Shown here: piece by piece, positions 248 to 63,797 of the stretch
Layout: every line of letters begins with the position of its first letter
How positions within the stretch are numbered: position 1 is the first letter of the stretch
Source of the DNA: Candidatus Cloacimonadales bacterium
Lineage (GTDB): Bacteria; Cloacimonadota; Cloacimonadia; Cloacimonadales; JAFGVF01
Direction of reading: 5' to 3'
DNA length: 64,000 nucleotides
Assembly (NCBI GenBank): GCA_963677815.1
Contig: OY782499.1
Span: 613,252-677,251, forward strand
Program-made: the position numbers and the translations under genes
Notes under the pieces: generated by a model
Database searches by the model: none
What the model saw: the letters and a program-made list of their open reading frames with translations, nothing else
Told to the model about the DNA's origin: nothing

Positions 248-253
248 TTTAAA

Positions 254-414
254 CCCAGATAGTGTAGTAGAGCTTTAATGAAGAGTGCAGATTATTCTAG
301 CAAAATAGCTTACATAATTTTGACGCATATAATTAATATATTCGGAGAAATTATGAAAGTTACTTTTGCAGAATAATATAGTGCTATTCACAAAGGTCTA
401 CTGCATTATTTGGG
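254..414. mobile_element. Family B foldback MITE-like element (161 bp), copy B1
   Basis: The ends cccagatagtgtagtagagc ... ggtctactgcattatttggg are imperfect terminal inverted repeats. It is near-identical to 24106-24266. The flanks are TTAAA/TTAAG. Confidence 0.8.
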
Positions 415-422
415 TTAAGACT

Positions 423-488
423 CTTCCTTGATTGTTACTCTCTCAATATATTTCCAATGATCTATTGAGAGAGTAACAATCAAGGAAG
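423..488. repeat. Family C long palindrome (26-bp perfect stem, 14-nt loop), copy C1
   Basis: The arm cttccttgattgttactctctcaata (423-448) is the exact reverse complement of 463-488. It lies immediately 3' of the comM stop. Related copies are at 16428-16486 and 54652-54717. Confidence 0.9.
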
Positions 489-2047: not shown

Positions 2048-2133
2048 TAAGCTTATAAATCCAATATATCTTTTTCATAATAGGTTGTCAATATAAATAT
2101 TTATTACTACTATTATTTAGTAAAATAGATTAA

Positions 2134-2220
2134 TACTCTCCCCGGTCTACTCGACCACCCCTCTAACTGGGAACTCGGGCATCCTGCCCGAACTTAGTAT
2201 TAAAACACTGTAAGGGGATT
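2134..2220 (+). repeat. Family A hairpin repeat, variant copy with a different apical module
   Basis: It has the conserved ends tactctccccggtctactcgaccacccctct ... aaggggatt. The usual caagcgctccaaggagctg apex is replaced by aactgggaactcgggcatcctgcccgaacttagtattaaaacactgt, which contains its own hairpin. Confidence 0.8.
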
Positions 2221-2230
2221 GATTGATATC

Positions 2231-2690
2231 GGATTGCGGTATTCTAGCCCTTGGTTACGCAGGTGTCATATTTTTTTGAGTATAGAGTGGAAGTATCCTT
2301 ACTTCCACCTGAGACCAGAGATGGTCTCAGTCCATAGGTTTGCGGTATTCTAGCCCTTGGTTACACAGGTGTCATATTTTTTTGAGTATAGAGTGGAAGT
2401 AGCCTTACTTCCACCTGAGACCAGAGATGGTCTCAGTCCATAGGTTTGCGGTATTCTAGCCCTTGGTTACGCAGGTGTCACATTTTTAGAGTATGGAGTG
2501 GAAGTATCCTTACTTCCACCTGAGACCAGAGATGGTCTCAGTCCATAGGTTTGCGGGATTCTAGCACGCGGTTACGCAGGTGTCATATTTTTAGAGTATG
2601 GAGTGGAAGTATCCTTACTTCCACTTGAGACCAGAGATGGTCTCAGTCCATAGGTTTGCGGGATTCTAGCACGCGGTTACGCAGGTGTCA
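2231..2690 (+). repeat. Tandem array of about 4.4 copies of a 105-106 bp structured unit (H motif plus a two-hairpin J module)
   Basis: Unit starts (ggWttgcgg) are at 2231, 2337, 2443, 2548 and 2653. Each unit has ...attctagcccttggttacgcaggtgtca... followed by tatRgagtggaagtatccttacttccac ctgagaccagagatggtctcag tccatagg, which contains two perfect 9-bp stems. Confidence 0.95.
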
Positions 2691-3545: not shown

Positions 3546-3758
3546 ATGGCAAAAGGAAAAGCATTTGCAGCAAAGCTTGCTCACGAACTTTCAACTGAAG
3601 GTAAAGTGATTTGTCCAGTTTGTAACACAGAAATTAAAAAAGTAAAATTAGTAAGATCCAGAAACAGCAAAGGTAACACTTGGGCTCCTAAATATCAATT
3701 CGTTAGCATGTGTAAATGTAATGAAAAAGATATCATGGCTGGAAAAGTTAACGCTTAA
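3546..3758 (+). CDS. Small (70 aa) four-cysteine zinc-ribbon-like protein of unknown function, co-transcribed with efp
   Basis: A strong SD (aggagga) lies 6 nt upstream. Has CPVC...CKC cysteine pairs. It sits 35 nt after efp and is followed by an intrinsic terminator at 3778-3814. Confidence 0.6.
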   Translation: MAKGKAFAAKLAHELSTEGKVICPVCNTEIKKVKLVRSRNSKGNTWAPKYQFVSMCKCNEKDIMAGKVNA

Positions 3759-16427: not shown

Positions 16428-16486
16428 TCTTCCTTGTTACTCTCTCAATATAATAACAGTATTCTATTGGGAGAGTAACAATCAGC
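16428..16486. repeat. Family C palindrome, copy C2 (imperfect)
   Basis: The sequence ctcttccttgttactctctcaata ... tattgggagagtaacaatcag is homologous to C1. As at the window start, it sits just downstream of a B element. Confidence 0.8.
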
Positions 16487-23836: not shown

Positions 23837-24469
23837 GGCTCAAGTTCAAGTCTTGTGGAAATTATGTTGCATTATTTTGCACTAGATATTGTATTACAGT
23901 AGTTTACGGATTATAAGTTACTATTGATAGTATTATTTTAGCAGAATAAGACATAATCCTGAAAGGATAGGTCTTATATCCCTAAAGGGGATTAATAGTT
24001 TAGCCCAGGGTAAAATCCTGAAGGGATTGCAACCCTGGGTAATGATGTATATAAAAAGCCTAACCCTGTAAGGGTTTAATAAAAACATATATATCAATGA
24101 TTTAACCCAGATTGTACAATAGAGCTTTAGAGAAGAGTGCAGATTCTTTTAGCAAAATAGCTTACAGAATTTTGACGCATATAATATATATATTCGGAGA
24201 AATTATGGAAGTTACTTTTGCAGAAGAATATAGTGCTATTCACAAAGGTCTACTGCATTATTTGGGTTTAATATTATAATTAGTTACCATTATATTAAAC
24301 CCTTACAGGGTTAGGTCGTAATTTTGGATATTGTTCCTGGGGTGACGATCCTTATAGGATCTTACCCCAGGCTAAATTATTAATCCCTTTCAGGGATACT
24401 TTGGATAATCACACTAATGATAAAATTTTATATTTTATTAAATTTTTCCACCAGACTTGAACTTGAGCC
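23837..24469 (-). mobile_element. Family D element, second copy, inverted relative to D1 and interrupted by a family B element
   Basis: It has the same terminal inverted repeats (ggctcaagttcaagtcttgtggaaa ... tttccaccagacttgaacttgagcc). The interior is collinear with the reverse complement of D1 except for a 161-bp insertion at 24106-24266. I see no matching TSD at its own ends. Confidence 0.9.
24106..24266. mobile_element. Family B element copy B2, nested inside D2, with a 5-bp TSD (TTTAA)
   Basis: TTTAA lies at 24101-24105 and at 24267-24271. The corresponding uninterrupted site in D1 reads caatgatttaatatt (reverse complement), with a single TTTAA. Confidence 0.9.
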
Positions 24470-40877: not shown

Positions 40878-40948
40878 GCCTTTTTTTTATCAAGATTTAT
40901 TATTAATTTATTTTTTTTGAGATCTCTCTAAAGTAGAGTTGCGTTAAA

Positions 40949-41177
40949 CCCAGATGGTGCAGTAGAGCTTTAGTAATACTTCGCTAAAGCTACGTATCAC
41001 AGGCGAAGAGTGCATATTCTTTTAGCAAAATCCCCTTCTTTGAGGGGGATACAGGGGATGATTCCTTTGATACGCATATAATATATATATTCAGATGAAT
41101 TATCTAAGTTACTTTTGCAATGAGTCTTCGCTAAAGCTACGCCCTCACAAGAATAATATAGTGCTATTTTCAATAAA
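40949..41177. mobile_element. Family B-related element (left part), carrying an internal family F hairpin
   Basis: The left terminus cccagatggtgcagtagagctttagtaatacttcgctaaagctacg matches B3. The interior matches B1/B2 (gaagagtgcatattcttttagcaaaa ... acgcatataatatatatattc ... aagttacttttgca). The canonical right terminus is missing here; a right-end-like sequence (ctattgcattatt) occurs at about 41683-41695. Confidence 0.6.
41028..41066 (+). repeat. Family F hairpin copy inserted inside the B-related element
   Basis: The sequence aaatccccttctttgagggggatacaggggatgattcc interrupts the segment that is contiguous in B1/B2 (tagcaaaa|tagcttac...). Confidence 0.75.
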
Positions 41178-41213
41178 GTTAAATTGTCGGAGAAAAGCTC
41201 AACTATCCAAAAA

Positions 41214-41337
41214 ATACTCTCCCCGGTCTTCACGACCACCCCTCTCAGGCGCTCCAAGGAGCTGAAAGGGGATTGTTTACTCTCCCCGGTCTACACGACC
41301 ACCCTTCTCAAGCGCTCCAAGGAGCTGAAAGAGGATT
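41214..41337 (+). repeat. Family A hairpin repeat, 2 tandem copies
   Basis: The sequence is atactctccccggtcttcacgaccacccctctcaggcgctccaaggagctgaaaggggatt followed by a second, slightly diverged copy. Confidence 0.9.
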
Positions 41338-53748: not shown

Positions 53749-53765
53749 TCTCCTGATAGGTGAAT

Positions 53766-54015
53766 CTATCCCCTTTCAGTTCGTAAGAGCGTTTGAGAGG
53801 GGTGGTCGTGTAGACCGGGGAGAGTAAACAATCCCCTTTCAGCTCGTAAGAGCGTCTGAGAGGGGTGGTCGAGTAGACCGGGGAGAGTAAACAATCCCCT
53901 TTCAGCTCGTAAGAGCGTCTGAGAGGGGTGGTCGAGTAGACCGGGGAGAGTAAACAATCCCCTTTCAGCTCGTAAGAGCGCTTGAGAGGGGTGGTCGTGT
54001 AGACCGGGGAGAGTA
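53766..54015 (-). repeat. Family A' hairpin repeat array: 4 tandem copies, 63-bp period, minus orientation, abutting the DUF559 copy 1 start
   Basis: The motif atcccctttcag starts at 53768, 53831, 53894 and 53957. The unit is atcccctttcagctcgtaagagcgtctgagaggggtggtcgagtagaccggggagagtaaaca. The array ends 2 nt before ATG 54018. Confidence 0.95.
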
Positions 54016-54017
54016 AT

Positions 54018-54398
54018 ATGAATACAATAAATTACAACAAAAAATTAAAGAAATATTCTAATAAATTAAAGAAAAATCTAACTCTACCAGAAGTACTATT
54101 TTGGAATAAAGTAAAAAATAAACAACTTGGATATAGATTCTACAAGCAGAAACCAATTGGAAATTATATAGTGGATTTTTATTGTGCTAAATTTAAATTA
54201 ATTATTGAAATTGATGGAAGGGATCATGATTTCAAAGAAGAATATGATGAAAAGAGAGAAATTTATCTAGAAAAATTAGGGATGAAGATTATTAGGTTCT
54301 CAAATTATCAAATATACAAACAGTTAGATGGTTGCATTGAATATATTCAGGGTTTTTTAAAAGGAAATCAAGAGTGTAATGATAAAAGACCAATATAA
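54018..54398 (+). CDS. DUF559 (Vsr-like / PD-(D/E)xK endonuclease fold) protein, copy 1
   Basis: 126 aa. Has LTLPEVLFWNKVK...YIVDFYCAKFKLIIEIDGRDH...MKIIRFSNYQI, which matches my recollection of the DUF559 core (aDFyc...liiEiDG..H ... RF.N.ei). The ORF abuts repeat arrays at both ends. Confidence 0.85.
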   Translation: MNTINYNKKLKKYSNKLKKNLTLPEVLFWNKVKNKQLGYRFYKQKPIGNYIVDFYCAKFKLIIEIDGRDHDFKEEYDEKREIYLEKLGMKIIRFSNYQIYKQLDGCIEYIQGFLKGNQECNDKRPI

Positions 54399-54644
54399 TA
54401 CTCTCCCCGGTCTACACGACCACCCCTCTCAGGCGCTCCAAGGAGCTGAAAGGGGATTAATACTCTCCCCGGTCTACACGACCACCCCTCTCAAGCGCTC
54501 CAAGGAGCTGAAAGGGGATTAATACTCTCCCCGGTCTACTCGACCACCCCTCTCAAGCGCTCCAAGGAGCTGAAAGGGGATTAATACTCTCCCCGGTCTA
54601 CTCGACCACCCCTCTCAGGCGCTCCAAGGAGCTGAAAGGGGATT
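54399..54644 (+). repeat. Family A hairpin repeat array: 4 tandem copies, 62-bp period, plus orientation, starting at the nucleotide after the DUF559 copy 1 stop
   Basis: The motif tactctcc starts at 54399, 54461, 54523 and 54585. The unit is tactctccccggtctacacgaccacccctctcaggcgctccaaggagctgaaaggggattaa. Confidence 0.95.
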
Positions 54645-54651
54645 AATACTT

Positions 54652-54717
54652 ATAGCTTGATTGTTACTCTCTCAATAGATTCTCATTGATTTATTGAGAT
54701 AGTAACAATCAAGCTAT
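54652..54717. repeat. Family C palindrome, copy C3
   Basis: The arms are atagcttgattgttactctctcaata and tattgagatagtaacaatcaagctat, forming a ~26-bp stem with one mismatch. Confidence 0.85.
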
Positions 54718-58314: not shown

Positions 58315-58397
58315 TATGGAGTGGATGCATCTTGCATCCACAACAGGCTCTGAAAGCCTGTTAATCTGGCGGCAAGATGCCGCCAGTCCATAGTGTG
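58315..58397 (+). repeat. Cloverleaf-like three-hairpin J module (83 bp), copy 1
   Basis: The layout is tatgga g [gtggatgca tct tgcatccac] aa [caggct ctgaa agcctg] ttaat [ctggcggca aga tgccgccag] tccata gtgt. The closing stem is tatgga/tccata. It is identical to 58578-58659. Confidence 0.9.
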
Positions 58398-58410
58398 TTT
58401 ACTCTTTTTT

Positions 58411-58531
58411 ACTCTCCCCGGTCTACTCGACCACCCCTCTCAAGCGCTCCAAGGAGCTGAAAGGGGATTGTTTACTCTCCCCGGTCTACTCGACCACCCC
58501 TCTCAAGCGCTCCAAGGAGCTGAAAGGGGAT
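58411..58531 (+). repeat. Family A hairpin repeat, 2 tandem copies (62-bp period)
   Basis: The motif tactctcc starts at 58411 and 58473. It is followed by a further hairpin, gcggatgtggtcatccgc. Confidence 0.9.
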
Positions 58532-58577
58532 GCGGATGTGGTCATCCGCTTTCCCAGTTATTGAGCTGAAAGGGTTT

Positions 58578-58659
58578 TATGGAGTGGATGCATCTTGCAT
58601 CCACAACAGGCTCTGAAAGCCTGTTAATCTGGCGGCAAGATGCCGCCAGTCCATAGTGT
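58578..58659 (+). repeat. Cloverleaf-like three-hairpin J module, copy 2
   Basis: A perfect direct repeat of 58315-58397. It ends at the stop codon of the O-methyltransferase gene. Confidence 0.9.
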
Positions 58660-59276
58660 TATTTCAAAACACTAATAGTAATTCCATCACCAACAGGTAA
58701 AATTGTTGTTTCGAGTAAGGGGTGCTTGATTACATAATGGTTATATTGATCCATAGGTTTGGCTAATCTATCCTTAAAACCCATAGGTAAGAAAAGTGTG
58801 TCATCTGCATAAATGATTCCTTTAGGGTTAAGAAGATTGATACAAGAATCAATAACCTTATTATAGAGTGGTTTATTTGAATCGATAATAATAATATCAT
58901 ATTTGTCTTTTAGGTCTTTAACTACTTCAATAGCATCACCAGCGATTACTTCAATTCTATCAGCTAGTCCTGCTTTTTCAATATTTACCACATTTTCTTT
59001 TACAAATCTTTCATCAATTTCGATTGTGGTTAGTTTACCCTTAGTTTTCTTCAGTGCTTCGCCTGCCCAAATAGCAGAATAGCCCAAACAAGTACCTATT
59101 TCTAAAACATTTTTAGCATCCTTCAAGATAATGAACCATGACAAGAGCCGGGCACCTTGTTTAGTGATATTTGGTTGAACGTTAATTCTTTCTTGATGTG
59201 CTATTTCAAGTTCTTTTAAGATTTGGTTAGGGTAGCTGATAAATGAATCAATATAGCTGTTAATTTTATCTTGCAT
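58659..59276 (-). CDS. Class I SAM-dependent O-methyltransferase (family 3, caffeoyl-CoA OMT/YrrM-like)
   Basis: 205 aa. Has a SAM motif (VLEIGTCLGYSAIW) and an IIIDSNK motif. Confidence 0.85.
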   Translation of the reverse strand: MQDKINSYIDSFISYPNQILKELEIAHQERINVQPNITKQGARLLSWFIILKDAKNVLEIGTCLGYSAIWAGEALKKTKGKLTTIEIDERFVKENVVNIEKAGLADRIEVIAGDAIEVVKDLKDKYDIIIIDSNKPLYNKVIDSCINLLNPKGIIYADDTLFLPMGFKDRLAKPMDQYNHYVIKHPLLETTILPVGDGITISVLK

Positions 59277-62435: not shown

Positions 62436-62448
62436 AGACAGGAAGGAA

Positions 62449-63196
62449 GAAGATTCTTTACACTAATTAACACGAATTAGAGCGAATTTCACGAATAAGA
62501 AGAAGTCTATCCACGGATTTCACTAATTACACGAATTACTTTTTGCTAAAAAGGGATTGTTCGTTTTTGGTCGAGGTATTCCAGTCCGTGGTTACGCAGA
62601 TGCCAAGATATAGATAAATCCCCCTTTGAGAGGGGGACGACAGGGGGGGGGCCTTTGTTTCCTTAACACAGAGTTTAGAAAAGAAGATTCTTTACGCGAA
62701 TTAACTCGAATTAGAGCGAATTTCACGAATAAGAAGAAATCTATCCACGGATTTCACTAATTACACGAATTACTTTTTGCTAAAAGTGTTAGTCTATGGG
62801 GAGCAGGATTCTAGCCTGTGGTTACGCAGATGCAAAGATATAGATAAATCCCCCTTTGAGAGGGGGACGACAGGGGGGGCCTTTGTTTCCTTAACACAGA
62901 GTTTAGAAAAGAAGATTCTTTACACTAATTAACTCGAATTAGAACGAATTTCACGAATAAGAAGAAGTCTATCCACGGATTTCACTAATTACACGAATTA
63001 CTTTTTGCTAAAAAGGGATTGTTGGTTTTTGGTCGCGGGATTCCAGTTCGCTATTACGCAGGTGACATGGATATAGATAAATCCCCCTTTGGGAGGGGGA
63101 AGACAGGGGGAGTTCCTTTGTTTTCTTTAACACAGAGTTTAGAAAAGAAGATTCTTTACGCGAATTAACTCGAATTAGAACGAATTTCACGAATTT
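62449..63196 (+). repeat. Tandem array of 3.2 copies of a ~228-236 bp composite unit (CGAAT-rich segment + H motif + family F hairpin)
   Basis: The motif gaagattcttta starts at 62449, 62683, 62911 and 63147. Each full unit ends with ...ggttacgcagRtg...atagataaatccccctttgagagggggacgacaggggg...tttcc. Confidence 0.95.
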
Positions 63197-63351
63197 ACTG
63201 GTTTAAAGGTTTGTAAGATATTGGAAGATTAATAGATAAAGAAAAGTGAGTGATTATATTTATATGTTTTATAATCATCCATTAGTTAGAAAAAAAAATT
63301 ATCCCGAAGGGATAACAGCCTGTGGTTACGCAGATGTCAAGATATAGATAA

Positions 63352-63388
63352 ATCCCCCTTTGAGAGGGGGAAAATAGGGGGTGTTTCC
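63352..63388 (+). repeat. Family F hairpin, left inverted repeat flanking DUF559 copy 2
   Basis: The sequence atccccctttgagagggggaaaatagggggtgtttcc is the exact reverse complement of 63761-63797. It ends 4 nt before ATG 63393. Confidence 0.95.
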
Positions 63389-63392
63389 ATAT

Positions 63393-63758
63393 ATGTTAAC
63401 AAAAGTACCTTATAGGTTACCTTATAATAAAGATTTAAAAGAAAAAGCTAGGTTTTTAAGAATTAATCAAACTAATGCTGAAAAGAAGCTATGGTATCAA
63501 TATTTATCACCTCACAAAGAAAAATTTAATAGACAGAAAATAATAGATAATTTTATTGTTGATTTTTATTGTGCTAGGCATAAATTAGTAATTGAAATTG
63601 ATGGTGAAACACATAATAGTGATAGATCTTATAATTATGATAAAAGAAGAACTCAAGTTCTAAATTCTTATGGATTAATAGTTATAAGATTTTCGAATTA
63701 CGAAATATATAATGAATTTGATAGTGTGATAGAAAGAATTGAAGAATATTTGAAATGA
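63393..63758 (+). CDS. DUF559 (Vsr-like / PD-(D/E)xK endonuclease fold) protein, copy 2
   Basis: Has QTNAEKKLWYQYL...FIVDFYCARHKLVIEIDGETH...LIVIRFSNYEI. By eye it is about 40% identical to copy 1 over the core. I chose ATG 63393; the track uses GTG 63381, which lies inside the flanking repeat. Ends with a TGA stop at 63756-63758. Confidence 0.85.
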   Translation: MLTKVPYRLPYNKDLKEKARFLRINQTNAEKKLWYQYLSPHKEKFNRQKIIDNFIVDFYCARHKLVIEIDGETHNSDRSYNYDKRRTQVLNSYGLIVIRFSNYEIYNEFDSVIERIEEYLK

Positions 63759-63760
63759 TA

Positions 63761-63797
63761 GGAAACACCCCCTATTTTCCCCCTCTCAAAGGGGGAT
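63761..63797 (-). repeat. Family F hairpin, right inverted repeat flanking DUF559 copy 2
   Basis: The sequence ggaaacaccccctattttccccctctcaaagggggat begins 2 nt after the TGA stop (63756-63758). Confidence 0.95.

What the first reader, a model, noticed from the sequence alone, without database searches (positions are those of the whole stretch)
2231..2690. Tandem array of a 105-bp structured unit whose hairpins show compensatory changes relative to a second locus
Each unit contains a J module: tatRga-g[gtggaAGTA-tcct-TACTtccac][ctgAGACca-gaga-tgGTCTcag]tccata. A closing stem encloses two perfect 9-bp hairpins.

At 58315 and 58578 the homologous module reads [gtggaTGCA-tct-TGCAtccac] and [ctgGCGGca-aga-tgCCGCcag], with a third hairpin inserted between them. 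The outer base pairs and the closing stem (tatgga/tccata) are conserved. The inner stem positions differ but remain complementary, at 2 and 4 compensated pairs respectively.

That is covariation, indicating selection on structure (RNA or cruciform/ssDNA) rather than on sequence. Within the array, one unit has ccacTtgag, which turns a C-G pair into a U-G wobble. The array occupies the divergent comM/efp promoter region.
Basis: seen in the sequence. Interest (0 to 1): 0.7.

Follow-up and report, generated by a model that had tools for sequence, protein, structure and literature searches.

The report
REP-type hairpin repeats of a Cloacimonadales transposase
The tandem array is real and its hairpins do keep their pairing through compensatory changes, but it is best explained as a new family of REP/REPIN-type palindromic DNA repeats tied to a RAYT-like tyrosine transposase in an uncultured Cloacimonadales bacterium, not as a structured RNA gene.

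Summary
There is a 105-bp tandem array at 2234-2690 with 4.3 copies. Each unit carries the 56-nt J module. Two 78-nt J copies with a third hairpin lie at 58315 and 58578.

J is a family: 63 distinct copies were found in Cloacimonadota MAGs. In these, 94.8% of stem cells pair, 8 pairs change on both sides, and there are 4 (hairpin 1) and 9 (hairpin 2) perfectly complementary stem variants.

Nothing favours RNA over DNA:
- There is no Rfam match.
- There is no G:T versus A:C asymmetry.
- J shows no orientation bias relative to flanking genes.
- Both strands fold alike.
- The array is absent from the efp upstream spacer of relatives.

The decisive evidence is genomic context. In three genomes, orthologues of one Y1/HUH transposase are directly flanked on both sides by J arrays. 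That transposase matches Pfam Y1_Tnp, and its best NCBIfam hit is REP-associated tyrosine transposase (below cutoff). Other paralogues carry other repeat families. The window's genome appears to encode the J-linked orthologue (89% identical).

J is itself a head-out inverted doublet of two related REP units, which explains the "closing stem".

Verdict: a REP/REPIN-RAYT system, and a new member of a known kind.

The parts
2234..2690 (+). Head-to-tail array of 4 units [module A + T-run + J] plus a fifth module A; period 105-106 bp
   Evidence: TRF; the repeat finder D2/D5; sequence
2281..2336 (+). J copy 1. TATAGA head, hairpin 1 at 2287-2308, hairpin 2 at 2309-2330, TCCATA tail
   Evidence: 71.4 bits
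2387..2442 (+). J copy 2 (hairpin 1 loop variant tagcct)
   Evidence: 69.1 bits
2492..2547 (+). J copy 3 (TATGGA head, perfect 6+9+9 bp fold)
   Evidence: 76.5 bits; DNA fold -20.2 kcal/mol, z -8.5
2597..2652 (+). J copy 4 (C-to-T at the foot of hairpin 2 gives T:G)
   Evidence: 72.5 bits
2234..2268 (+). Module A (TTGCGGKATTCTAGCNNNNGGTTACRCAGGTGTCA). Further copies at 2340-2374, 2446-2480, 2551-2585 and 2656-2690. It is unstructured. On the minus strand it reads as a sigma-70-like (A/G)TGACA-17-TAGAAT site. Related copies lie at 62565-63340
   Evidence: (D5)
2128..2215 (+). Composite of other repeat modules abutting the array on the left. A 63-bp-unit 5' part is followed by AACTGGGAACTCGGGCATCCTGCCCGA (Q-type hairpin), then the 63-bp-unit 3' end
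   Evidence: (D4)
58315..58392 (+). J, three-hairpin form. Hairpin 1 at 58321-58341, inserted middle hairpin at 58344-58360, hairpin 2 at 58366-58386
   Evidence: 72.4 bits; -31.7 kcal/mol, z -10.6
58578..58655 (+). Second, identical three-hairpin J. It ends 3 nt from the stop-codon end of the O-methyltransferase gene 58659-59276 (minus)
   Evidence: (D16)
58404..58556 (+). Other modules between the two J copies: two 63-bp units, then GCGGATGTGGTCATCCGC + TTTCCCAGTTATTGAG (Q-type module)

Best explanation
J is the REP-type repeat of a REP-associated tyrosine transposase (RAYT, a Y1/HUH enzyme) lineage in Cloacimonadales.

Each J is a head-out inverted doublet of two related stem-loop units:
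- REP-a: TATGGA-G-TGGAAGCA-loop-TGCTTCCA-C.
- REP-b, read on the other strand: TATGGA-C-TGnnnGCA-loop-TGCnnnCA-G.

Some copies carry an extra hairpin between the two units.

Shown here:
- The family exists in several genomes.
- It is extragenic.
- Its stems covary.
- It directly flanks the RAYT gene on both sides in three genomes.
- Other RAYT paralogues carry other repeat families.

Inferred from what is known of RAYT and IS200/IS605 enzymes:
- The hairpins form in single-stranded DNA, for example during replication.
- The RAYT recognises and cuts or rejoins them in trans.
- This is why pairing, not sequence, is conserved.
- It also explains how copies spread to new intergenic sites.

The 105-bp array in the comM-efp spacer is a lineage-specific, head-to-tail amplification of one J plus an adjacent 49-nt segment (module A). 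It was probably made by slippage, unequal recombination or RAYT strand transfer. It sits between the two core promoters and is not a conserved regulator of either gene.
For: Family and covariation:
- The genome scan found 54 stretches. Forty of them are in Cloacimonadota MAGs, and with the window they give 63 distinct J copies.
- 94.8% of stem cells pair, against 33-36% when the partners are slid. Eight pairs change on both sides (105 cells). 0 of 500 shuffles reach the observed percentage of cells paired, cells changed on both sides, or covariation score; the count of pairs with a both-sided change was reached in 81 of 500.
- There are 4 perfectly complementary inner-stem variants of hairpin 1 and 9 of hairpin 2.

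Link to the RAYT:
- L018:3397-3948 matches Pfam Y1_Tnp at 43 bits (cutoff 23). Its best NCBIfam hit is REP-associated tyrosine transposase.
- HUH (MPNHVH), Trp and Tyr are invariant in 28 homologues. Distant homologues show YIExNPVKAGL.
- J copies lie 14-52 nt from both ends of this gene in L018, in L071 with a 70% identical protein, and in L073 with a 76% identical protein.

One repeat family per paralogue:
- L072 carries a 178-bp compound repeat, L074 the P/Q modules, and L075 long REPIN-like hairpins.

Doublet architecture:
- The 5' half of J and the reverse complement of its 3' half agree at 20 of 28 consensus positions, including the head and loop.
- The model scores both strands.

The window's genome:
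- The window's DUF559 protein, a RAYT 89% identical to L018's, and a second RAYT all lie on contigs of 2,879,990 bp.

DNA-level behaviour:
- Gene configurations are >J> 9, <J< 8, >J< 7, <J> 6.
- There are 11 G:T against 30 A:C cells in stems, or 14 A:C without two doubtful pairs.
- Both strands fold equally.
- Related genomes differ by module-sized indels.
- The array is absent upstream of efp in relatives.

Agreement with the literature:
- REPs keep their palindromes through complementary mutations, flank rayt genes, form clusters, and each RAYT has its own REP family (PMC2817692, PMC6006769).
- Tandem reiteration of REPs together with flanking DNA is described in PMC3733652.
Against: - No biochemical or transcript data exist.
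- The NCBIfam RAYT score (65.2 bits) is below the curated cutoff (80).
- The Cloacimonadales proteins end at YIRENG and lack the NP(L/V)(R/K)xG tail.
- PDB searches reach only ISDra2 TnpA, weakly (E 0.0025), and not the E. coli RAYT.
- The RAYT gene is not in the window. Its presence in the same genome rests on matching contig lengths.
- The flanks of that copy could not be fetched, because exact look-ups for proteins of this genome failed.
- Whole J units flank the RAYT head-to-tail on the gene's strand. The classical description is two oppositely oriented REPs.
- There is no common GT[AG]G head: REP-a has GTGG and REP-b has CTG[AG].
- The search pattern fixed 21 positions, so the outer pairs and the closing stem cannot show covariation in A1.
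- One J is kept at an orthologous site about 65 nt upstream of a gene start in two genera whose flanks have diverged. This hints at a host-level role or at concerted evolution.
- Genome-wide copy number is unknown.
Confidence: 0.8

Rival explanations
1. J, or the whole 105-nt unit, is a structured non-coding RNA or cis-regulatory mRNA element. On this reading the arrays yield repeated small RNAs or stabilising and terminating structures.
For: - Strong, covarying hairpins.
- RNA folding z-scores of -5.6 and -5.4 for two units.
- One J is retained at an orthologous site upstream of a gene in two genera.
- E. coli REPs are known to act on mRNA 3' ends (abstract of bioRxiv 10.64898/2026.03.23.713779). 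A secondary RNA-level effect of transcribed copies is therefore plausible.
Against: - No Rfam family at gathering or E-value thresholds.
- Sense and antisense placements between co-directional genes are equal, 9 versus 8.
- No excess of G:T over A:C in stems.
- No hairpin followed by a T-run, on either strand, within the array.
- Absent from efp upstream spacers of relatives.
- The RAYT association explains the same covariation.
Confidence: 0.1
2. J is a miniature inverted-repeat transposable element. On this reading the 6-bp TATGGA/TCCATA ends are terminal inverted repeats, and it is moved by a DDE transposase or by the DUF559 nucleases seen in the window.
For: - J has inverted termini and is interspersed in intergenic DNA.
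- Two DUF559 genes in the window are bracketed by inverted copies of other repeat modules.
Against: - No DUF559 gene lies in any other J locus.
- The repeat bracketing DUF559 number 2 (P module) is the flanking repeat of a different RAYT paralogue.
- No recurrent target duplication is visible in the flanks of about 66 copies. This was by inspection only.
- The termini are explained by two inverted REP heads.
- No DDE transposase was found next to J.
Confidence: 0.05
3. The hairpins are double-stranded palindromic operator sites for a dimeric DNA-binding protein. The array would then be a bank of binding sites in a divergent promoter region.
For: - Perfect 9-4-9 palindromes.
- Location between two divergent genes.
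Against: - Different inner-stem sequences coexist in one genome (AGTA, TGCA; AGACCA, GCGGCA). Both half-sites always change together. This fits hairpin formation, not one protein's base-specific readout.
- Copies lie in all intergenic contexts.
- The array is absent in relatives.
Confidence: 0.03

Closest known systems
REP/BIME elements and their RAYT (TnpA_REP, YafM) in E. coli, Stenotrophomonas and Pseudomonas; the 'REPtron' arrangement (PMC2817692, PMC6006769)
   Same: - Extragenic stem-loop repeats in many copies.
- Palindromy is kept by complementary mutations.
- The repeats cluster.
- They directly flank a single-domain Y1/HUH transposase gene.
- Several RAYT paralogues occur per genome, each with its own repeat family.
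   Different: - The host phylum is Cloacimonadota, which is not mentioned in any of the four REP/RAYT papers searched.
- There is no common GT[AG]G head. Instead the two units share a longer head, TATGGA.
- The units are fixed head-out doublets, sometimes with a third hairpin inserted.
- Arrays are head-to-tail and lie on the same strand as the RAYT gene on both sides.
- The protein is C-terminally short (YIRENG, no NPxxxG).
REPINs of Pseudomonas fluorescens (two inverted REPs plus a spacer; PMC3116915, PMC3337134) and the 'HH dimers' of GTAG/CGTC repeats (PMC3733652)
   Same: The mobile or amplified unit is a doublet of two REPs in inverted orientation. Singlets and truncated copies coexist with it. 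Clusters are reiterated in tandem together with flanking DNA.
   Different: In J the two REPs have different stems. Each folds on itself, and only the 6-nt heads pair with each other, giving a three- or four-way junction rather than one long hairpin. Spacing between the units is 0-6 nt, or a 17-20-nt extra hairpin.
TnpA_REP subclass 2.6 and class 3 with 'atypical secondary structures' (Bacteroidetes, Planctomycetes, Acidobacteria; PMC6006769)
   Same: About 180-aa proteins with an NH[LIV]H/NHVH HUH motif. The flanking repeats lack GT[AG]G and had to be found by hand. The hosts include Bacteroidetes, and my recollection is that Cloacimonadota is grouped with Bacteroidetes in the FCB group (not checked here).
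   Different: Subclass membership of the Cloacimonadales proteins was not tested by phylogeny. The Tyr motif YIRENG fits none of the published signatures exactly. J hairpins are strong (9 bp, G+C rich), not weak.
IS200/IS605 subterminal hairpins (IS608, ISDra2)
   Same: A Y1/HUH enzyme family that recognises imperfect hairpins in single-stranded DNA. The profile of the Cloacimonadales proteins hits ISDra2 TnpA in the PDB.
   Different: There is no IS structure, no tnpB and no distinct left and right ends. The gene is single-copy per lineage and syntenically variable, with dozens of solo repeats.

Membership tests
REP/REPIN-RAYT (REPtron) system | Short stem-loop repeats confined to extragenic DNA | tested here: met
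   All six window copies lie in gaps between long ORFs. Of the 47 J-bearing intergenic sites examined in the window and loci, all but 7 lie between ORFs, and those 7 overlap crude ORF calls.
REP/REPIN-RAYT (REPtron) system | High copy number per genome (tens to hundreds), often clustered | tested here: inconclusive
   The window has 6 copies in 64 kb. The strict pattern alone gives about 23 matches in 13 stretches of chromosome OY829950 and about 30 in MAG JAEKNW01. The model finds more in the same stretches. No whole-genome census was possible. Clustering into arrays of period 60, 68, 105, 109, 116 and 138 bp was seen.
REP/REPIN-RAYT (REPtron) system | A Y1/HUH tyrosine transposase gene of RAYT type directly flanked by the repeat | tested here: met
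   Seen in L018, L071 and L073. J copies lie within 14-52 nt of both gene ends. Pfam Y1_Tnp is above cutoff.
REP/REPIN-RAYT (REPtron) system | Flanking REPs present in inverted orientation | tested here: inconclusive
   Every J contains two related REP units in inverted orientation, so both orientations occur on each side of the gene. However, whole J units are all head-to-tail on the gene's strand. This differs from the classical picture (PMC2817692).
REP/REPIN-RAYT (REPtron) system | Conserved GT[AG]G head at the foot of the hairpin | tested here: not met
   REP-a has GTGG, although the search pattern fixed it. REP-b has CTG[AG]. The shared head is TATGGA. REP types without GT[AG]G are already accepted for subclass 2.6 and class 3 (PMC6006769).
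REP/REPIN-RAYT (REPtron) system | RAYT-specific protein features (HUH, catalytic Tyr, N-terminal Thr, NP(L/V)(R/K)xG) | tested here: inconclusive
   HUH, Trp and Tyr are invariant. ITFRT is present. The Cloacimonadales proteins stop at YIRENG, whereas distant homologues in the same alignment carry YIExNPVKAGL. NCBIfam REP_Tyr_transpos is the best hit but scores 65.2 bits against a cutoff of 80.
REP/REPIN-RAYT (REPtron) system | Each RAYT paralogue has its own repeat family (co-evolution) | tested here: met
   L072, L074 and L075 paralogues (56-67% identical) are flanked by three other repeat families. The hairpin 2 sequence differs between the J copies of L018, L071 and L073.
REP/REPIN-RAYT (REPtron) system | The enzyme binds and cleaves or rejoins the repeat as single-stranded DNA | not testable with these tools
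   This needs purified protein and oligonucleotides.
Structured non-coding RNA family | Match to a curated RNA family | tested here: not met
   There are 0 matches at gathering score over the window. Over 2000-2950 there is only a chance SNORA64 hit at E 0.15.
Structured non-coding RNA family | Strand-specific signal: G:U tolerated, A:C not; constant orientation relative to transcription | tested here: not met
   There are 11 G:T against 30 A:C cells. Sense and antisense placements number 9 and 8. The reverse strand folds and scores alike.
Structured non-coding RNA family | Covariation supporting the fold | tested here: met
   A DNA hairpin predicts the same covariation.
E. coli-type BIME | REPs in regularly alternating orientation separated by defined linker motifs | tested here: not met
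   Whole units are head-to-tail. Alternation exists only inside each J.
MITE | Terminal inverted repeats plus target-site duplication, related to a DDE-transposase IS | tested here: inconclusive
   There is only a 6-bp inverted terminus. No recurrent duplication was seen on inspecting the flanks, and no formal test was run. No such IS was found.
CRISPR array | Identical repeats separated by unique spacers | tested here: not met
   The whole 105-bp unit repeats at 96% identity, so there are no unique spacers.

The most novel reading that the evidence does not exclude
J may represent an undescribed compound class of RAYT substrate. It would be a fixed head-out REP doublet that folds in single-stranded DNA as a three- or four-way junction. 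The enzyme would amplify it head-to-tail. Hosts in some places retain it, for example at an orthologous site across genera, or use it. In the comM-efp array it was amplified together with an adjacent segment (module A) that reads as an outward sigma-70-type promoter. Such arrays could therefore act as mobile promoter or structure cassettes that rewire neighbouring genes.
Probability: 0.2. Interest if true: 0.55.

Novelty: new member of a known kind. Interest (0 to 1): 0.35.

Why it matters
- It extends REP/RAYT biology to Cloacimonadota, an uncultured phylum common in anaerobic digesters. These genomes turn out to be dense with several co-existing REP families and RAYT paralogues.
- The J doublet has a clean architecture and many natural compensatory variants. 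That makes it a ready-made substrate set for testing how a RAYT reads hairpin shape versus sequence.
- Practically, such arrays break short-read assemblies and can be mistaken for RNA genes or CRISPR-like loci. Knowing what they are helps annotation and binning.
- It does not open a new kind of biology.

Tried and rejected
1. Known RNA family: Rfam gave nothing at gathering or permissive thresholds.
2. Wider sampling. The metagenome scan with a hairpin-1 anchored pattern gave only 3 loci. The viral scan gave one chance match inside a coding region. Fourteen of the 54 genome hits were single chance matches in unrelated taxa without complementary stems, and I excluded them.
3. Array copy number in other assemblies of the same strain. 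Exact look-ups of the window's EF-P and DUF559 proteins found no indexed contig. Only more distant relatives could be compared, and they lack the array and even the comM neighbour.
4. DUF559 nuclease as the partner of J. Two DUF559 genes in the window are bracketed by inverted repeat modules. However, no DUF559 lies in any other J locus. One of those modules belongs to another RAYT paralogue.
5. Module A as the functional core. It reads as a minus-strand sigma-70-like promoter in every unit. J orientation relative to neighbouring genes gives no support, and RAYT-flanking arrays lack module A.
6. Intrinsic terminator: no hairpin plus T-run on either strand within the array.
7. Solved-structure relatives. 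A single-sequence search found none. A profile search found only weak ISDra2 TnpA hits.
8. Literature. Nothing turned up on Cloacimonas/Cloacimonadota repeats or on DUF559-repeat links.

Full report
**1. What is in the sequence**

The window is low in G+C, about 32%. Its longer intergenic gaps hold G+C-rich repeats.

TRF reports one array at 2234-2690 with period 105, 4.3 copies and 96% identity. Each unit has three parts:
- A 35-nt segment I call module A (TTGCGGKATTCTAGC....GGTTACRCAGGTGTCA).
- A short T-rich linker.
- The 56-nt J module: TATRGA, G, hairpin 1 (GTGGAAGTA-tcct-TACTTCCAC), hairpin 2 (CTGAGACCA-gaga-TGGTCTCAG), TCCATA.

Two identical 78-nt J copies lie at 58315-58392 and 58578-58655. 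Their inner stems differ from the array copies but still pair, and they carry a third hairpin between the other two.

The J pattern occurs six times in the window, against none in 100 shuffles. A covariance model finds no further copy.

J folds into the proposed closing stem plus hairpins on either strand, as DNA or RNA, with z-scores of -8 to -10. Module A folds no better than shuffles.

The flanking genes are a ComM/YifB-type ATPase on the minus strand and EF-P on the plus strand. One correction applies: only half of the 105-bp unit is structured.

**2. J is a family, and its stems covary**

I scanned one genome per species with a pattern that leaves the inner stems free. It returned 54 stretches.
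- Forty are from Candidatus Cloacimonadota/Cloacimonadales MAGs.
- The other fourteen are single hits in unrelated taxa without complementary stems, and I treat them as chance.

EF-P homologues also place the window in Cloacimonadales.

With the window, this gives 63 distinct J sequences. On the proposed structure:
- 94.8% of cells pair, against 33-36% when partners are slid by 1-3 columns.
- Eight pairs show changes on both sides (105 cells).
- No shuffle of 500 reaches the observed percentage of cells paired, the number of cells changed on both sides, or the covariation score. The number of pairs with a both-sided change was reached in 81 of 500 shuffles.

Counting stems directly gives four perfectly complementary inner variants of hairpin 1: AGCA, AGTA, AGCG and TGCA. 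Hairpin 2 has nine, for example ATGGCA, ACAGCA, AGACCA, AGGGCA, GTGGCA, GCGGCA, GCAACA, AGAGCA and GGGGCA. The inserted middle hairpin also switches between CAGGCT/AGCCTG and CCAAGCT/AGCTTGG.

Two caveats apply. The pattern fixed 21 positions, so the outer pairs and the closing stem cannot show covariation in this set. The copies are paralogues, so cell counts are not independent events.

**3. RNA or DNA?**

Five tests bear on this, and none favours RNA.
- Rfam has no match at gathering scores. Under permissive settings the only hit is a chance snoRNA match.
- Non-Watson-Crick cells in stems comprise 11 G:T and 30 A:C. Leaving out two doubtful terminal pairs gives 14 A:C. The plus strand is therefore not favoured as an RNA would be.
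- Relative to flanking ORFs, J lies sense 9 times and antisense 8 times between co-directional genes. It lies 7 times between convergent genes and 6 times between divergent ones.
- No hairpin followed by a T-run lies within the array on either strand.
- In four relatives the spacer upstream of efp has no J. Only about the last 90 nt before the ATG is conserved.

In the window the array sits between that conserved block and a strong promoter-like site next to comM at 2063-2091.

Related genomes differ by module-sized insertions and deletions. One example is a 45-bp deletion between TTCC microhomologies that removes hairpin 1 of a J copy.

One observation points the other way. A J copy is kept about 65 nt upstream of a gene start in two genera whose surrounding spacer has diverged.

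**4. The link to a transposase**

While inspecting the locus richest in J (L018, chromosome OY829950), I found a 183-aa ORF between two J arrays.
- It matches Pfam Y1_Tnp at 43 bits (cutoff 23).
- Its best NCBIfam model is REP-associated tyrosine transposase, at 65.2 bits. This is below the curated cutoff of 80.
- J copies end about 52 nt before its start codon and resume 14 nt after its stop. All are on the gene's strand.

I then fetched the contexts of homologues.
- The 70% identical orthologue in another 3.1-Mb genome (L071) is preceded by a 116-bp-period array of five J copies that ends 22 nt before its ATG. It is followed by one full and two partial copies.
- The 76% identical orthologue in L073 is likewise bracketed by J copies.
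- Three more distant paralogues (56-67% identical) are bracketed by three other repeat families. These are a 178-bp compound of five hairpins inside its own closing stem (L072), P/Q modules (L074) and long REPIN-like hairpins (L075).

In an alignment of 28 homologues the HUH motif (MPNHVH), a Trp and the Tyr are invariant. Distant members carry the RAYT-type YIExNPVKAGL. The Cloacimonadales proteins end at YIRENG.

The window contains no such gene. However, three proteins each sit on a single contig of 2,879,990 bp: the window's own DUF559 protein (100% match), a RAYT 89% identical to that of L018, and a second RAYT. I infer that they share one genome. This was not shown directly.

**5. What J is**

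I aligned the 5' half of J with the reverse complement of its 3' half. The two are versions of one unit:
- TATGGA-G-TGGAAGCA-TCYT-TGCTTCCA-C.
- TATGGA-C-TGnnnGCA-TCnT-TGCnnnCA-G.

They agree at 20 of 28 consensus positions, including the head and the loop. This is why the model scores the reverse strand at 50-57 bits.

J is therefore a head-out inverted doublet of two REP-like stem-loops. The "closing stem" is the pairing of the two inverted heads.

This matches published descriptions:
- REPs flank rayt genes, keep their palindromes through complementary mutations, cluster, and co-evolve with their RAYT (PMC2817692).
- REP doublets in inverted orientation (REPINs) are the likely mobile unit (PMC3337134, abstract).
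- Clusters arise by tandem reiteration of singletons or dimers with flanking DNA (PMC3733652).
- Several tnpA_REP genes in one genome each have their own REP family, and some subclasses have atypical repeats without GT[AG]G (PMC6006769).

None of these four papers mentions Cloacimonadota. Two literature searches found nothing on repeats in this phylum.

**6. Mechanism, with shown and inferred steps**

Shown:
- The family exists.
- It is extragenic.
- Its stems covary.
- It has a doublet architecture.
- It is tightly and repeatedly adjacent to one RAYT lineage.
- Each paralogue has its own family.
- Copies are gained and lost at module scale, and there are truncated copies.

Inferred from the biochemistry of RAYT and IS200/IS605 enzymes:
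- The hairpins extrude in single-stranded DNA.
- The enzyme recognises shape plus a few bases near the foot, then cuts and rejoins.
- This maintains pairing and spreads copies.

The head-to-tail array in the comM-efp spacer is a local amplification of J plus neighbouring DNA. Whether slippage, unequal recombination or the enzyme made it cannot be told.

**7. The mosaic context**

J recombines with other modules.
- A Q-type hairpin plus TTCCCAGTTA lies next to J in six other loci, at 58523-58556, and in reverse at 2150-2195.
- The P module precedes J in four loci.
- Hairpins 1 and 2 occur with other partners in a 109-bp array.
- Hairpin 1 occurs alone in a 531-bp array.

**8. Verdict**

The finding is real and the covariation argument holds. 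The object is a REP/REPIN-RAYT system: a new family in a new phylum with a tidy compound architecture, not a new kind of element or an RNA gene.

- Confidence in this reading: about 0.8.
- Interest: moderate to low, 0.35.

Noticed in passing
window 63352-63388 and 63761-63797, around the gene 63393-63758: A DUF559 (Vsr-like PD-(D/E)XK) gene is bracketed by a perfect 37-bp inverted repeat, ATCCCCCTTTGAGAGGGGGAAAATAGGGGGTGTTTCC. Each arm contains a hairpin. Orthologues in two other genomes (L067, L068) sit at the same syntenic site and are bracketed by diverged versions of the same inverted repeat. This P module is also the repeat that flanks a second RAYT paralogue (L074). The arrangement looks like a gene sitting inside a REPIN-like doublet.
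   Followed up: partly
window 53764-54015 (minus-strand units), 54018-54398 (gene), 54396-54650 (plus-strand units): A second DUF559 gene, 45% identical to the first, is abutted on both sides by four-copy arrays of a 63-bp unit in inverted orientation (arms 90-94% complementary). No literature linking DUF559 to repeats was found.
   Followed up: partly
window 41150-41335, 53764-54015, 54396-54705, 58404-58531; singles at 2128 and 23631: A 62-63-bp repeat unit, TACTCTCCCCGGTCTACNCGACCACCCCTCTCAAGCGCTCCAAGGAGCTGAAAGGGGAT, occurs in arrays of 2-4 copies on both strands. It is the most abundant repeat in the window. Its cognate gene, if any, was not identified.
   Followed up: no
window 2234-2690, minus strand; also 62565-63340: Read on the minus strand, module A is a sigma-70-like promoter, (A/G)TGACA-17 nt-TAGAAT, at 10 of 12 matches in all five copies. 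Two copies have TG before the -10. Diverged copies in the 228-bp array keep both hexamers and the 17-nt spacing (TTGGCA..TGGAAT, TTTGCA..TAGAAT, TTGACA..TGTTAT). Whether it fires is unknown.
   Followed up: partly
window 62447-63194: A 228-bp-period array of 3.2 copies lies just upstream of the DUF559 gene. Each unit is built from 9-bp sub-repeats (TTACACGAA-like), a module A copy and a P-type hairpin module.
   Followed up: no
window 249-418, 24101-24271, 40943-41119: An approximately 170-bp element occurs three times in the window. Copies in many loci of other Cloacimonadota MAGs are 83-94% identical (a few diverged ones 74-77%), whereas the neighbouring genes are about 74% identical. It contains a long imperfect palindrome (41-nt arms, 76% complementary) and shared terminal motifs (AACCCAGATGGTGCAGTAGAGCTTT). 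There is no Rfam match. It is a candidate MITE or non-coding RNA.
   Followed up: partly
window 427-484, 16429-16486, 54656-54713: A 58-bp near-perfect palindrome (CTTGATTGTTACTCTCTCAATA...TATTGAGAGAGTAACAATCAAG; 30-nt arms, 97% complementary) occurs in three copies.
   Followed up: no
L002, L006, L010, L030, L032 and other JAEKNW01 loci: In one MAG most J copies carry the same C:C mismatch at the fifth pair of hairpin 2. It appears in two different stem backgrounds: GCGGCA/TGCCCC (19 copies) and GCGCCA/TGGCCC (9 copies). A conserved mismatch may be a recognition feature.
   Followed up: no
window 3546-3758: A 70-aa ORF with CxxC...CxC spacing lies directly after efp. It has no Pfam hit on record in relatives. 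It is kept in the same efp-ORF-arginine deiminase order in all relatives examined (L058-L065).
   Followed up: no
L075 1-959: The third RAYT paralogue of chromosome OY829950 lies next to a gene with a reverse-transcriptase (RVT_1) domain.
   Followed up: no
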